64,000 nt of DNA from Bacillota bacterium (GTDB lineage Bacteria; Bacillota; DTU025): assembly GCA_050951805.1 (NCBI GenBank), contig JBMNJT010000002.1, forward strand, positions 992,001 through 1,056,000, in the 5' to 3' direction. Of this stretch, positions 26,455 to 32,045 are shown one piece after another. How positions within the stretch are numbered: position 1 is the stretch's first letter; every line of letters starts with the position of its first letter. A program made the translations under genes and the position numbers. The notes below the pieces were generated by a model that did not search any database, had not been told where the DNA came from, and saw nothing but the letters and a program-made list of their open reading frames with translations.

Positions 26455-26810
<356 letters not shown>

Positions 26811-27161
26811 TTTCATGTGATGCCCGGCTTATGCCGGGCATCGCCATTTCTCAAGAATGGGCTGGATCAGGTGCTATCAGGATCGATGCCCGCGATGCCA
26901 AAATGTATTGGTTGAACGGGCCACAATACGGCTAAACGACACGCGCCTTCCGGCGTTCATTTAAGAAATCAACTATCCCCAGCCACGTGGCTCACCTTTC
27001 TGTATGCGATTGGATCAGGAAAGCTTGCAGAATGTCTTAATCATAAAGCGAGCGCTTGCTCTTCGGATACCCTAGCCCAAAACGAAAGACCGTGGATGCC
27101 TGTTCGGCGGAAGATCCCTCACGTGTCAGGCAGAGCGTCGGGTTCCTGGAAGGAACGACTA

Positions 27162-28104: not shown

Positions 28105-28440
28105 ATGAAGCTATGGAGATGCGGAGTGTGCGGCTATATCCATGATGGCAGTACGCCTCCCGAAAAGTGCCCTAAGTGTGGTGCTCCTGCAGAGAGATTC
28201 TCCGAAGTAGATGATAAGGAGACGGAACTGATCAGAAGGTCCCGTTATACCAATGATCTTCATTGCAGGCTGATCGCACTCATGGAACAGGTTGAGGAGA
28301 TAGCTGAAGCCGGAATAGATGATGATCTTGATCCAGGCTGTGTTGCTGTATTCAAGCGTGCACGAGAAGAGGCGTGGATAATCGGACAGTCGGCTAAAGC
28401 TGAGATCCGGGCTCATATAACCAAGGGCAAGTGGAGCTAG
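28105..28440 (+). CDS. Rubredoxin-like domain protein with helical C-terminal domain
   Basis: WRCGVCGYIH..PEKCPKCGAP followed by GIDDDLDPGC and AEI..H..KGKW. Confidence 0.85.
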   Translation: MKLWRCGVCGYIHDGSTPPEKCPKCGAPAERFSEVDDKETELIRRSRYTNDLHCRLIALMEQVEEIAEAGIDDDLDPGCVAVFKRAREEAWIIGQSAKAEIRAHITKGKWS

Positions 28441-28453
28441 CCTTTGTTTCTGT

Positions 28454-28488
28454 CCTGTGGCCGCTCGAGGGGGCGGCTACAGGCTTTT
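28454..28488 (+). terminator. Intrinsic terminator of the rubredoxin operon
   Basis: CCTGTGGCCGCTC-GAG-GGGGCGGCTACAGG followed by CTTTT. Confidence 0.75.
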
Positions 28489-28660
28489 ACGGGCAAATGG
28501 TGAGCATAGGCCGGGATGCGAGGTTCAGGCGATGGCATGGTTCAATCCATGGGCGTATTGCCGATCCTACGTTACCTCCGGATGAGCTGTAACTCTAGGG
28601 AATCTTATGGGCCACAAGGAAAAGATTCCAAGTCACGTCGTAATATGTTATGAAACTGAT

Positions 28661-28689
28661 GCATATAACCACGGTAATCGGCCATGATA
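28661..28689 (+). promoter_or_regulatory. Putative sporulation (sigmaG-like) promoter for the star-shaped RNA
   Basis: GCATA-N17-CATGATA ending 6 nt before the RNA's first stem. Confidence 0.55.
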
Positions 28690-28695
28690 TCTAAC

Positions 28696-29087
28696 GAGGT
28701 TTACGGCGGTCGAGCGAAGACCCACAATGGATCTGATCATATCGCAAGGTGTCGGGTCCATTGTGCGTCGAGCAAAGGTCGGTTGCGGCTTTAAGCAGGA
28801 CCGCAACTGGCCGGAGCTAAGATCGTTGCAGGTTGGCCAACTTATGGCGGCGGTTGATGAGATCGTCGTTGTAGGGAAACCTATCTGCAGCGGTCGAGCG
28901 AAGATCAGCGTACGAGCGAAAGTGTGGTGTTGCAGTCGAGAGACTGCAGCATGATGCCCAAGTTCGGACGTTGGTCGATCAAAGGTTGTTGCATTCCGTG
29001 AACCGGCTGCTCAGTGCCGAAAGGTGTTGGGTAGTCGCAAATCGGGATGCAGCAGCCGGAGAGCAGATCGTCGTGAGCCTCCTTTTT
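28696..29087 (+). ncRNA. Unrecognised large structured RNA: six-way junction with repeated GAGCRAA linkers
   Basis: 16-bp closing stem 28696-28711/29066-29081; five arms with long helices, many G-U pairs and GNRA loops; six similar 7-8 nt linkers; terminal T run. Confidence 0.85.
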
Positions 29088-29171
29088 GCTTTTCGCCTGT
29101 CTTTCCTGATAATGCTGCTCGAGTCTTCACGAACACACCCAGATTTGACCGAAAGCGGAATTGGTTATAGA

Positions 29172-29201
29172 GCATAAGAGGAGTTGGGCCAAGGTAAAAT
29201 A
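29172..29201 (+). promoter_or_regulatory. Putative sigmaF/sigmaG promoter of spoVT
   Basis: GCATA-N16-GGTAAAATA; spoVT is sigmaG-controlled in Bacillus and Clostridia. Confidence 0.6.
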
Positions 29202-29221
29202 ATAACAAGGGAGGGATGTGC

Positions 29222-29755
29222 GTGAAGGCGACAGGGATAGTAAGAAGAATCGATGACCTTGGCAGAGTAGTCGTTCCCAAAGAGATCCGTAGGACCCTTC
29301 GAATACGCGAGGGAGATCCGCTTGAGATATTCACCGATCGCGAGGGATCGGTGATCCTTAAGAAATATTCCCCCATTGCGGACCTTGGAGAGTTTGCCCA
29401 AGAATACGCGGATTCACTGTACGAAGCAACGAGGCACATAGTGCTCATCGCAGATCAAGATGAGGTTGTTGCGGTAGCAGGAGCCTCAAGGAAGAGTTTC
29501 TATGAACGTCGGATTACTGAGCACGTAGAGGAAGTCATGCGCAACAGGAAGCCATTCCTTTCCAACACTGCCAACGAGAATCCGCCAATCGAAGACTTGG
29601 AGTTGTCTAGCCAGGTAATTGCTCCCATAATTGTCGAAGGGGACATCGCCGGAGCTGTGATCATGTTGTCTCAAGAGGGCAAGTCCATGGGCGAGCTCGA
29701 ATTGAAACTCGCTGAAACAGCGGCTGGATTCTTGGCCAAACAGTTGGGACAATAG
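29222..29755 (+). CDS. spoVT: Stage V sporulation protein T (AbrB + GAF domains)
   Basis: MKATGIVRRIDDLGRVVVPKEIRRTLRIREGDPLEIF; C-terminal ETAAGFLAKQ. Confidence 0.97.
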   Translation: MKATGIVRRIDDLGRVVVPKEIRRTLRIREGDPLEIFTDREGSVILKKYSPIADLGEFAQEYADSLYEATRHIVLIADQDEVVAVAGASRKSFYERRITEHVEEVMRNRKPFLSNTANENPPIEDLELSSQVIAPIIVEGDIAGAVIMLSQEGKSMGELELKLAETAAGFLAKQLGQ

Positions 29756-31759: not shown

Positions 31760-32045
31760 AGGCGAAATACGATGACGGGGAAGAGTATCGATCGGGACGG
31801 CCAAAGAGAGTGGAGGATGGTGGGATCTCCATGCTGGTCGGGTCGGGAAAATCACCCCCGAGTTGCAGGCTGAAAGGGAACGAGTAAGCTGTGCCGCGTC
31901 CCTGCGTTATCGGGGCTAACGAGAGGGCCGACATTTCTGCGACGGTTCCGTTGCCGCCTGGTGAAACCAGGCCATGTGTCGGCTAATTTAGGGTGGTACC
32001 GCGAGTTAACCCCTCGTCCCTTGGACGGGGGGCTTTATCTTTTCT
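31760..32045 (+). promoter_or_regulatory. Ile T-box riboswitch
   Basis: Stem I with AGAGA/GGTGGGA motifs, specifier ATC at 31851-31853, T-box AGGGTGGTACCGCG at 31990-32003, terminator CCCCTCGTCC/GGACGGGGGG plus T run. Confidence 0.93.

What the first reader, a model, noticed from the sequence alone, without database searches (positions are those of the whole stretch)
28696..29087. Unrecognised ~386-nt star-shaped RNA: six-way junction with five long arms, upstream of spoVT
Seen by manual pairing. A 16-bp stem GAGGUUUACGGCGGUC (28696-28711) / GAUCGUCGUGAGCCUC (29066-29081) closes the element and is followed by CUUUUU. Inside are five self-contained arms. Arm 1 (28719-28769): 13-bp core helix, GCAA loop. 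Arm 2 (28777-28812): 12 bp. Arm 3 (28821-28895): 13-bp base plus a 13-bp sub-hairpin. Arm 4 (28903-28976): 9-bp base, 11-bp apical helix, GAGA loop. Arm 5 (28984-29057): 14-bp base, 14-bp apical helix, GAAA loop. I count over 30 G-U pairs and saw no A-C oppositions in these helices, which points to selection on a + strand RNA rather than on DNA palindromes. There is no credible ORF in the region. It does not match my recollection of RNase P, tmRNA, SRP, 6S, CsfG, OLE, group I/II introns or known riboswitches. Inference: an independently transcribed, ornate ncRNA, possibly a scaffold or protein sponge.
Basis: partly seen in the sequence, partly recalled or inferred. Interest (0 to 1): 0.92.

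Follow-up and report, generated by a model that had tools for sequence, protein, structure and literature searches.

The report
Star-shaped spore-linked structured RNA family
This is a real, previously uncatalogued ~390-base RNA gene that folds into a five-armed star, occurs in about half of the spore-forming relatives sampled, and carries the kind of promoter used inside developing spores, so it may be a new player in bacterial dormancy.

Summary
The + strand folds far better than shuffles (z -12.8) and the - strand does not (z -1.3). 36 of the 147 pairs are G-U. Homologues keep the fold with heavy compensatory change: 35 of 59 pairs in arms 3-4 and 27 of 30 in arm 5 (0 of 500 shuffles reach either).

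No Rfam 15 family matches, and seven literature searches found no description.

It is a widespread family, not a local oddity. Covariance models find it in 70 of 151 sampled genomes of the phylum. All 70 carry spore-protein (SASP) genes; none of the 20 SASP-negative genomes has it.

Each copy looks like its own gene:
- A conserved promoter (G-N-A-T-A, 17-18 nt, C-A-N-N-N-T-A) ends 5-10 nt before the closing stem. The same motif lies upstream of SASP genes and spoVT, which fits the forespore sigma-F/G type.
- The closing stem plus a U tract serves as terminator.
- Neighbouring genes vary, so it is not a spoVT leader.
- It is present in metatranscriptome assemblies from several studies.

Function is unknown. 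My best guess is a forespore-made architectural RNA: a scaffold or a self-assembling particle.

The parts
28661..28665 (+). -35-like promoter element (GCATA)
   Evidence: Read. It is the top-scoring site in the whole genome for a weight matrix built from homologues without the window (20.5 bits).
28683..28689 (+). -10-like promoter element (CATGATA), 17 nt after the -35 element and 6 nt before the closing stem
   Evidence: No sigma-70-type site lies on the + strand here.
28696..28711 (+). Closing stem, 5' strand (16 nt)
   Evidence: Pairs 3-18 with 408-423 of alignment A1 are kept with compensatory changes.
28712..28718 (+). Junction linker L0 (GAGCGAA)
28719..28769 (+). Arm 1 (variable in length between genomes)
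   Evidence: It is shortened to a 10-bp hairpin in G003 and G009.
28770..28776 (+). Junction linker L1 (GAGCAAA)
28777..28812 (+). Arm 2 (variable)
   Evidence: It is expanded in L036.
28813..28820 (+). Junction linker L2 (GGAGCUAA)
28821..28895 (+). Arm 3: basal helix, conserved internal loop (CCAA opposite GGAAA), G-U-rich apical helix
   Evidence: Helices 1 and 2 are 98-99% paired, and 20 of their 30 pairs show compensatory change.
28896..28902 (+). Junction linker L3 (GAGCGAA)
28903..28976 (+). Arm 4: internal loop (GAAA opposite CCAA), apical helix, GAGA tetraloop
   Evidence: Helices 3 and 4 have 15 of 29 pairs with compensatory change.
28977..28983 (+). Junction linker L4 (GAUCAAA)
28984..29057 (+). 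Arm 5: the most widely conserved module, 74 nt, with a symmetric purine-rich internal loop and a GAAA tetraloop
   Evidence: 97.9% of cells paired and 27 of 30 pairs with compensatory change in 63 sequences. Its length is constant.
29058..29065 (+). Junction linker L5 (GGAGAGCA)
29066..29081 (+). Closing stem, 3' strand
29082..29087 (+). U tract (CUUUUU); together with the closing stem it is the presumed intrinsic terminator
   Evidence: In 46 of 63 homologues at least 5 of the 9 nt after the stem are T, against 7.8% of control 9-mers.

Best explanation
Window 28696-29087 (+) encodes a member of an undescribed family of roughly 360-460-nt structured non-coding RNAs.

SHOWN:
- The RNA folds into a closed multi-way junction: a 16-bp closing stem and usually five arms.
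- The arms are related hairpin modules joined by six copies of a purine-rich linker (about GAGCNAAG).
- Arms 3 and 5 keep a fixed length.
- The fold is maintained by compensatory substitutions across a whole phylum of Bacillota.

INFERRED, strong: it is a self-contained gene. A conserved promoter ends 5-10 nt before the closing stem, and the closing stem plus U tract acts as the terminator. It works in trans, not as a leader of spoVT.

INFERRED, moderate: the promoter is of the forespore sigma-F/sigma-G type. The RNA would then be made inside the developing spore, alongside SASPs and SpoVT.

INFERRED, weak: its job is architectural. It would be a rigid star whose fixed-length arms, GNRA tetraloops and conserved A-rich internal loops either hold several copies of a spore protein or dock onto each other to build a larger RNA particle kept in the dormant spore.
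For: Fold:
- z = -12.8 on the + strand against -1.3 on the - strand.
- 36 of 147 pairs are G-U.

Covariation:
- 73 of 132 pairs show compensatory change in 14 full-length sequences.
- Arms 3-4: 99.3% of cells paired and 35 of 59 pairs compensatory; 0 of 500 shuffles reach this; slid controls are 33-55% paired (33 sequences).
- Arm 5: 97.9% paired and 27 of 30 pairs compensatory; 0 of 500 shuffles; slid controls 36-43% (63 sequences).

Not a known family:
- No Rfam match at the gathering threshold or up to E = 10 beyond noise.
- None in five distant homologues.

Family size:
- 12 of 21 genomes of the order.
- 47 of 151 (model R1) and 69 of 151 (model R2) genomes of the phylum sample; the union is 70.

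Module repeats: the arm-5 model also hits arms 4 and 2 of the window's own copy.

Own gene:
- The promoter motif scores at least 7 of 8 in 53 of 64 upstream regions, against 1.9% of 2438 control windows.
- It is the best site in the whole own genome.
- No sigma-70-type site lies on the + strand.
- A U tract follows in 46 of 63 copies.
- The nearest downstream ORF lies on the opposite strand in 37 of 63.
- 229 neighbouring ORFs fall into 174 clusters.
- spoVT has its own copy of the motif after the RNA's terminator.

Forespore type:
- A matrix built from the RNA promoters scores a median of 12.3 bits upstream of 30 SASP genes, against 4.0 bits in 489 control windows (at least 12 bits in 16 of 30 against 48 of 489; Mann-Whitney p = 3e-8).
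- In C. difficile, ssp, spoVA and spoVT are sigma-G or sigma-F/G dependent, and the two consensus sequences resemble each other and those of B. subtilis (PMC3789822, passages read).
- All 70 RNA-positive genomes have SASP genes. 0 of the 20 SASP-negative genomes has the RNA (Fisher p = 1.2e-6; related genomes are not independent).
- The RNA repeatedly sits next to sporulation genes in unrelated contexts: spoVT, a sigK-like sigma factor, spoVA, spoVF/ymxH-like.

Expression: the stretch is held by 22 runs of 14 studies, 14 of them recorded as RNA. Contigs of four metatranscriptomes from four studies cover it.
Against: - No experiment shows when or where the RNA is made.
- The letter consensus of sigma-F/G promoters is recalled, not read. 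The papers held show it only as figures.
- Of the window genome's three SASP genes only one has a clear copy of the motif. 14 of the 30 SASP upstream regions score below 12 bits.
- Most genomes of the phylum form spores (131 of 151 have SASP genes), so the restriction to spore formers is only moderately informative, and it is confounded by relatedness.
- In two metatranscriptomes a contig runs from the upstream gene through the spacer into the RNA (X2 record 1, X3 record 6). Read-through from upstream, or DNA in those libraries, cannot be excluded.
- Bulk digester RNA holding the element sits a little uneasily with expression confined to forespores.
- Nothing tested here bears on the scaffold or self-assembly idea. 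Two obvious ring-shaped RNA binders, TRAP and Hfq, are not found in this genome.
Confidence: 0.6

Rival explanations
1. The same structured trans-acting RNA, but not sporulation-specific. It would be made in growing cells too, from this promoter by another sigma factor or by read-through or processing of the upstream rubrerythrin-like operon. The link to spore formers would reflect shared ancestry only.
For: - Contigs in RNA libraries bridge from the upstream gene into the RNA (X2 record 1 spans 28200-29427; X3 record 6 spans 28360-28857).
- The element is assembled from bulk digester and sludge metatranscriptomes of many studies.
- 61 SASP-positive genomes lack a detected copy.
Against: - The promoter motif sits at a fixed distance in 53 of 64 homologues whatever the upstream gene.
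- The same matrix finds SASP and spoVT promoters.
- No sigma-70-type site lies on the + strand.
- The upstream gene is followed by a hairpin with a short U run that I saw by eye at about 28454-28489. The scan did not call it.
Confidence: 0.2
2. A polycistronic precursor. The repeated linkers would be cleavage sites for an RNase that releases the arms as separate hairpin RNAs of roughly 35-75 nt, which would be the active species.
For: - Six near-identical linkers flank related hairpin modules.
- Arm number varies between lineages, from one arm (G061) to five.
Against: - A 16-bp closing stem that encloses all arms is conserved with covariation. It would serve no purpose in a mere precursor.
- Contigs in RNA libraries span several arms and linkers without breaks (X7 record 14 spans 28694-29000; X9 record 18 spans 28753-29075).
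- Adapter-marked ends in X3 (28991, 29073) do not fall in linkers.
Confidence: 0.08
3. A cis-acting 5' leader or riboswitch that controls spoVT by termination at the U tract.
For: In the window's own clade the RNA always lies 135 nt or so upstream of spoVT on the same strand.
Against: - Outside that clade the neighbours differ.
- The nearest downstream ORF is on the other strand in 37 of 63 copies.
- In L088 the RNA lies downstream of spoVT.
- spoVT has its own promoter motif at 29172-29201, after the RNA's terminator.
- No alternative anti-terminator pairing is evident.
Confidence: 0.03
4. A DNA-level repeat: a MITE, a REP-like palindrome cluster, or a remnant of a mobile element or phage.
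For: - The arms are palindromic at the DNA level.
- Some genomes hold two copies.
Against: - It is single-copy in its own genome: the other 10 blastn matches have E of 0.97 or worse.
- Only the + strand folds well, and 36 G-U pairs would be A-C on the other strand.
- There are no terminal inverted repeats or target duplications.
- The pattern has 0 matches in viral contigs.
- Synteny is stable within clades.
Confidence: 0.01

Closest known systems
Large 'ornate' bacterial ncRNAs of unknown function (OLE, ROOL, GOLLD, raiA motif)
   Same: - It is a large, highly structured RNA in anaerobic or extremophilic Bacillota, supported by covariation, with function unknown.
- Deletion of raiA causes sporulation defects (PMC10861870, abstract seen).
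- ROOL, GOLLD and OLE form RNA-only homo-oligomers (PMC12286853, abstract seen). This is the model for the self-assembly idea.
   Different: - No Rfam model matches.
- The architecture is a single closed junction of repeated modules with repeated linkers.
- It carries a forespore-type promoter.
- Oligomerisation was not tested.
Forespore-specific small RNAs of Bacillus (CsfG; Bvs196/S357)
   Same: They are independent transcripts with a sigma-F/sigma-G promoter and an intrinsic terminator, made in the forespore (PMC9147052, passages read).
   Different: - Those RNAs are described in Bacillus. Bvs196 is 294 nt long and acts by base-pairing with mRNAs.
- The present RNA occurs in other Bacillota, is about 390 nt long and forms a star-shaped junction.
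- Sequence relatedness could not be tested, because their sequences were not at hand.
Multi-site protein-sponge RNAs (CsrB/RsmZ type) and ring-protein ligands such as the TRAP-binding trp leader
   Same: A short motif repeats several times in one RNA. Each linker holds GAG and AAG triplets two bases apart, which recalls the spacing of TRAP sites (recalled).
   Different: - The repeats lie in a junction, not in hairpin loops.
- No TRAP or Hfq gene was found in this genome.
- No partner protein is known.
Intrinsic-terminator hairpins
   Same: A G+C-rich stem is followed directly by a U tract.
   Different: Here the 'loop' of the terminator hairpin is the whole ~350-nt star.

Membership tests
Any Rfam 15 family (4227 models; OLE, ROOL, GOLLD, raiA, HEARO, 6S, tmRNA, SRP, RNase P and group I/II introns are in Rfam by my recollection) | The covariance-model score reaches the family's gathering threshold | tested here: not met
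   - 7 matches in the window, none at 28400-29300.
- only SNORA55 (E = 3.4) and mir-2996 (E = 7.9), far below their thresholds.
- 0 matches in 5 distant homologues.
Independent sRNA/ncRNA gene | Own promoter immediately upstream | tested here: met
   The two-block motif scores at least 7 of 8 in 53 of 64 homologues, against 1.9% of controls. This is computational evidence only.
Independent sRNA/ncRNA gene | Own terminator immediately downstream | tested here: met
   A U tract follows in 46 of 63 copies, against 7.8% of controls. The simple hairpin scan does not call it because the 'loop' is 350 nt long.
Independent sRNA/ncRNA gene | A discrete transcript of the predicted size | tested here: inconclusive
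   Contigs of four RNA libraries cover it, and one begins at 28694. Contigs cannot define ends, and two of them run on into the upstream gene.
Forespore (sigma-F/sigma-G) regulon | Promoter of the sigma-F/G type | tested here: met
   The matrix built from the RNA promoters recognises upstream regions of SASP genes and of spoVT. The consensus letters themselves are recalled.
Forespore (sigma-F/sigma-G) regulon | Expression depends on sigF/sigG and is confined to the forespore | not testable with these tools
   This needs mutants and reporters in a cultured carrier.
cis-regulatory leader / riboswitch | Constant position upstream of one gene class on the same strand | tested here: not met
   174 clusters among 229 neighbouring ORFs, and the downstream ORF is on the other strand in 37 of 63 copies.
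MITE / REP-type repeat | Many dispersed copies with terminal repeats | tested here: not met
   One search shows a single copy in the own genome. Carrier genomes hold one or two loci each.
CsfG / Bvs196 | Sequence or structure homology to the Bacillus RNAs | not tested

The most novel reading that the evidence does not exclude
The star is the protomer, or the hub, of a spore-borne particle. Made by sigma-F/G polymerase in the forespore, it would assemble through its fixed-length arms, GNRA tetraloops and A-rich internal loops. The product would be either an RNA-only homo-oligomer, as ROOL and GOLLD form, or a pseudo-sixfold RNP around an unknown protein. The particle would be stored in the dormant spore and act in dormancy or at germination. 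That would make it the first structural RNA specific to bacterial spores.
Probability: 0.2. Interest if true: 0.95.

Novelty: categorically new. Interest (0 to 1): 0.86.

Why it matters
Large structured bacterial RNAs are few, and almost every one whose function has been worked out turned out to do something fundamental.

This one is as well supported by covariation as the known classes, and it is common: at least 70 of 151 sampled genomes of a phylum. It has an unusual, nearly symmetric modular design.

Its promoter also gives a concrete, testable lead on when it acts, namely inside the forespore. Very little is known about RNA-level biology there.

Some carriers have complete single-contig genomes (for example G039, G080, G103, G110, G142). 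That may mean they are cultured, which I could not check. If so, Northern blots, knockouts and cryo-EM would be within reach.

Tried and rejected
- **Ring-protein partners.** TRAP (PF02081) and Hfq (PF17209) were sought in the window's genome (97% complete) and not found. The idea that the GAG/AAG linkers wrap one of these rings is dropped for this genome.
- **Linker-to-linker pairing.** RNAfold often pairs 2-5 linker bases around an arm. The partners overlap from one linker to the next, and the variable linker base does not co-vary with a partner in the window copy (my reading). I do not count these as helices.
- **RNAduplex for closing stems**. It gave long meaningless duplexes and was replaced by an ungapped 16-bp search.
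- **Automatic multiloop parsing of raw folds**. It was noisy and was used only as a guide.
- **SASP promoters in the window's own genome**. One of three shows the motif clearly, which is too few to argue from. I replaced this with 30 SASP loci across the phylum.
- **Text search for sigma-F/G consensus letters**. It returned only unrelated papers. The two C. difficile papers give the consensus as figures only.
- **Literature searches for a description of this RNA** and term searches inside PMC11109978 and PMC8632094. Nothing was found. Supplementary motif lists of those papers were not seen and could hold it.
- **Viral contigs.** The pattern has 0 matches.
- **Depth figures from read laying**. 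In X7 the contig on the RNA has depth 89.6 and the flanking contigs 4.5 and 4.8. In X3 the contigs on the RNA have depths of about 200-340 and the one over spoVT 32. X7 and X9 have stretches without cover after about 29000-29092. Contig depths and gaps cannot rank genes or show ends, so none of this is used as evidence.
- **Not used.** No protein search, structure prediction or complex prediction was run, because the feature is RNA.
Full report
**1. The observation**

It has a 16-bp closing stem, five self-contained arms and a CUUUUU tail.

RNAfold gives this six-way junction as the minimum-energy structure of the + strand. The energy is -219.3 kcal/mol, against -142.5 +/- 6.0 for 100 dinucleotide-preserving shuffles (z = -12.78). 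The reverse complement folds no better than chance (-115.1 kcal/mol, z = -1.33, 12 of 100 shuffles as good).

The fold of 28696-29081 has 147 pairs, of which 36 are G-U. These would be A-C mismatches on the other strand. The signal is therefore in an RNA read from the + strand, not in DNA palindromes. Only short ORFs cross the region.

The six single-stranded joints of the junction are copies of one purine-rich motif (about GAGCNAAG), and each arm begins G-A/G-U and ends with the complement.

**2. Is it a known RNA?**

- A scan of the whole window against Rfam 15 at gathering thresholds finds rRNA, tRNAs, RNase P RNA (26455-26814) and a T-box (31763-32024), but nothing here.
- A permissive scan of 28300-29300 returns only two chance-level matches, with E = 3.4 and 7.9.
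- Five distant homologues also match no family.
- Five full-text searches and term searches inside two genome-wide ncRNA surveys (PMC11109978 and PMC8632094) found no description. I could not see the supplements of those surveys.

**3. Homologues and covariation**

The element is single-copy in its own genome.

BLASTN finds it in 13 of 40 related genomes at E < 1e-20, down to 70-72% identity, and twice each in G030 and G038. An exact-pattern scan of 185,579 species genomes gave 31 loci. All lie in uncultured Bacillota/Clostridia MAGs, apart from three contigs in two MAGs of one project labelled Patescibacteria and Bacteroidota, which are probably mis-binned.

Folding each homologue alone reproduces the star. 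The covariation evidence is as follows.

| Alignment | Sequences | Cells paired | Pairs with compensatory change | Shuffles reaching this | Slid-partner controls |
|---|---|---|---|---|---|
| Full length (RNAalifold) | 14 | not given | 73 of 132 | not run | not run |
| Arms 3-4 | 33 distinct | 99.3% | 35 of 59 | 0 of 500 | 33-55% paired |
| Arm 5 | 63 distinct | 97.9% | 27 of 30 | 0 of 500 | 36-43% paired |

The structure is therefore under selection.

**4. Size of the family**

- A covariance model of arms 3-4 (R1) finds the RNA in 12 of 21 genomes of the order. Family f1 has it in 10 of 11 (the miss is a 72%-complete genome), f2 in 1 of 1, f3 in 0 of 1 and f4 in 0 of 7.
- R1 finds it in 47 of 151 evenly drawn genomes of the phylum.
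- A model of arm 5 plus the 3' closing strand, built from 63 sequences (R2), finds it in 69 of the same 151 (64 of the 140 high-quality genomes).
- The union is 70, because G097 is hit only by R1, at a contig end. These are lower bounds, since the tool applies strict filters above 40 genomes.

I folded ten loci that only R2 found.
- Five are clean five-arm stars with closing stems of 15-16 bp.
- In three more the star and its linkers are evident, although my script misplaced the closing stem.
- One G+C-rich case is multi-armed but unresolved.
- One (G061) is reduced to the closing stem around a single arm-5-like module.

**5. Anatomy across the family**

- The 63 distinct full elements are 362-459 nt long, median 392.
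- 54 of the 63 fold as five arms.
- Arms 1 and 2 vary from about 32 to about 100 nt and are sometimes much expanded or shrunk.
- Arm 4 is 74 nt in the window's relatives and 97-139 nt elsewhere.
- Arm 3 (74-77 nt) and arm 5 (74 nt) keep their length. The fold adds about 10 nt to each when it pairs linker bases.
- Arms 4 and 5 end in GNRA tetraloops on a similar apical helix. Arms 3-5 carry conserved A-rich internal loops.
- The arm-5 model also matches arms 4 and 2 of the same element, at 48 and 44 bits in the window copy. The arm 3-4 model gives overlapping shifted hits. The arms are therefore paralogous modules, and the star probably grew by tandem duplication of 'linker + hairpin'.

**6. 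A gene of its own**

Promoter. In 64 distinct upstream regions I looked for G-N-A-T-R, 17-18 nt, C-A-N-N-N-T-A ending 3-20 nt before the closing stem.
- 25 regions match 8 of 8 positions, 28 match 7, 10 match 6, and 1 matches 5. That last one is a false internal element.
- Of 2438 random windows from the same loci, 1.9% reach 7 and 0.12% reach 8.
- The spacer is 17 nt in 44 regions and 18 nt in 20. The gap to the stem is mostly 5-10 nt.
- In the window the elements are GCATA (28661-28665) and CATGATA (28683-28689).
- A weight matrix built without the window's own site ranks that site first in the whole 2.75-Mb genome on both strands (20.5 bits; the next is 18.1). Close relatives were in the matrix, so this is partly circular.
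- No sigma-70-type site lies on the + strand.

Terminator. In 46 of 63 elements at least 5 of the 9 nt after the closing stem are T, against 7.8% of controls.

Neighbours.
- In the window's clade the order rubredoxin - rubrerythrin - rubrerythrin-like - RNA - spoVT is conserved.
- Elsewhere the neighbours differ. 229 flanking ORFs fall into 174 clusters.
- The nearest downstream ORF of at least 100 aa is on the opposite strand in 37 of 63 elements, on the same strand in 23, and absent in 3.
- In one locus the RNA follows spoVT instead of preceding it (L088).
- spoVT in the window has its own copy of the motif at 29172-29201, after the RNA's U tract.

This rules out a spoVT leader.

**7. What kind of promoter?**

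From memory, the motif is that of the forespore sigma factors G and F. I could not read the consensus letters in any paper held here, because they appear only as logos.

I therefore tested it inside this phylum. The matrix from the RNA promoters was run over the 200 nt upstream of 30 SASP genes from 30 genomes.
- The median best score is 12.3 bits, against 4.0 bits in 489 control windows.
- 16 of 30 reach at least 12 bits, against 48 of 489 controls (Mann-Whitney p = 3e-8).
- Most best sites lie 40-65 nt before the domain start.

SASP genes, spoVA and spoVT belong to the sigma-G or sigma-F/G regulon in C. difficile. There the two consensus sequences resemble each other and those of B. subtilis (PMC3789822, passages read). 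In the window's genome the matrix also picks out spoVT and a LonB-like gene, the latter identified by eye only.

Caveats: 14 of the 30 SASP regions score below 12 bits, and only one of the genome's own three SASP genes shows the motif clearly.

**8. Link to sporulation**

In the 151-genome sample, SpoIVA is found in 128 genomes and SASP in 131.
- By my reading of the tables, all 70 RNA-positive genomes are SASP-positive, and none of the 20 SASP-negative genomes has the RNA (Fisher p = 1.2e-6).
- For R1 alone against SpoIVA, 46 of 47 RNA-positive genomes are SpoIVA-positive and 22 of 23 SpoIVA-negative genomes lack the RNA (p = 0.0014). The one exception is a 90%-complete genome that does have SASP genes.
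- Related genomes are not independent and most of the phylum sporulates, so this is supportive rather than decisive.
- Family f4 of the same order lacks SpoIVA and SASP in the 2 genomes sampled and the RNA in all 7 searched.

Where neighbours are recognisable they are often sporulation genes, in unrelated arrangements: spoVT, a sigK-like sigma factor after a SpoVD-like PBP, spoVA genes, and dipicolinate synthase with a YmxH-like gene. I identified these by eye from the N-termini and did not check them against Pfam.

**9. Expression**

The stretch 28600-29200 is held by 22 public runs from 14 studies. 14 are recorded as RNA, mostly anaerobic-digester and sludge metatranscriptomes.

Contigs of four such runs from four studies were laid on 28200-29600.
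- All four cover the RNA.
- One contig spans 28694-29000 and so begins where the promoter predicts. A contig end is at most a hint.
- Two contigs run on from the upstream gene into the RNA. Read-through or DNA carry-over therefore cannot be excluded.
- Depth figures and gaps are not used as evidence.

**10. Mechanism**

What is shown is a conserved, modular, closed star. What is strongly inferred is an autonomous, terminator-capped, trans-acting RNA. What is moderately inferred is synthesis in the forespore.

For function I commit to an architectural role. The fixed arm lengths, GNRA loops, conserved A-rich internal loops and a pseudo-symmetric junction of six identical linkers are the features expected of an RNA that either positions several copies of a partner or docks onto itself. 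ROOL, GOLLD and OLE do the latter (PMC12286853, abstract seen).

TRAP and Hfq, the obvious ring-shaped binders of repeated purine triplets, are not found in this genome.

The alternatives are expression outside sporulation, a multi-hairpin precursor, a spoVT leader, and a DNA repeat. They are weighed in their own section.

**11. Verdict**

This is a genuine and, as far as Rfam 15 and the searched literature show, undescribed class of large structured RNA. It is widespread in spore-forming Bacillota of one phylum and carries a forespore-type promoter. Its function is open, but direct experiments can address it.

Noticed in passing
window 29172-29201: spoVT (29216-29755) has its own promoter-like site of the same type as the RNA's (GCATA, 18 nt, TAAAATA). 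It scores 14.8 bits with the matrix built from the RNA promoters.
   Followed up: partly
window 28441-28660: A spacer of about 250 nt lies between the rubrerythrin-like gene (28105-28440) and the RNA promoter. By eye it starts with a G+C-rich hairpin and a short U run (about 28454-28489) that the terminator scan did not call. Two metatranscriptome contigs run through the spacer.
   Followed up: partly
window 26455-26814 and 31763-32024: RNase P RNA (class A, 334.6 bits) and a T-box leader (120 bits) lie in the same window. The window starts with the 3' part of a 23S rRNA and a 5S rRNA.
   Followed up: no
G098:C9 (locus L078), G030:C41, G038, G053, G036, G062, G125, G138: Several genomes carry two copies of the RNA. 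In G098 the two copies lie about 2.6 kb apart on the same strand and flank two potassium-uptake-like genes on the other strand. In G030 they lie about 16 kb apart on opposite strands.
   Followed up: partly
G061:C1:1899200-1899880 (locus L159): A reduced form: the conserved closing stem and linkers enclose a single arm-5-like module (about 130 nt). This hints that arm 5 plus the closing stem is the minimal core, or that this copy is decaying.
   Followed up: partly
loci L036, L037, L050: Three contigs with the RNA belong to MAGs labelled Patescibacteria and Bacteroidota from one project. Their neighbouring genes look like those of Bacillota, so the contigs are probably mis-binned.
   Followed up: no
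family f4 / genus g8 of the window's order: This lineage has small genomes (1.5-2.3 Mb). SpoIVA and SASP genes were not found in the 2 genomes sampled, nor the RNA in any of the 7 searched. It looks like a non-sporulating branch of the order.
   Followed up: partly
G000 genome-wide: 57 sites score at least 14 bits with the forespore-type matrix. Besides the RNA and spoVT they precede a LonB-like protease, an HU-like protein, a ribbon-helix-helix protein and several small membrane proteins. This may be a first sketch of the organism's forespore regulon.
   Followed up: partly
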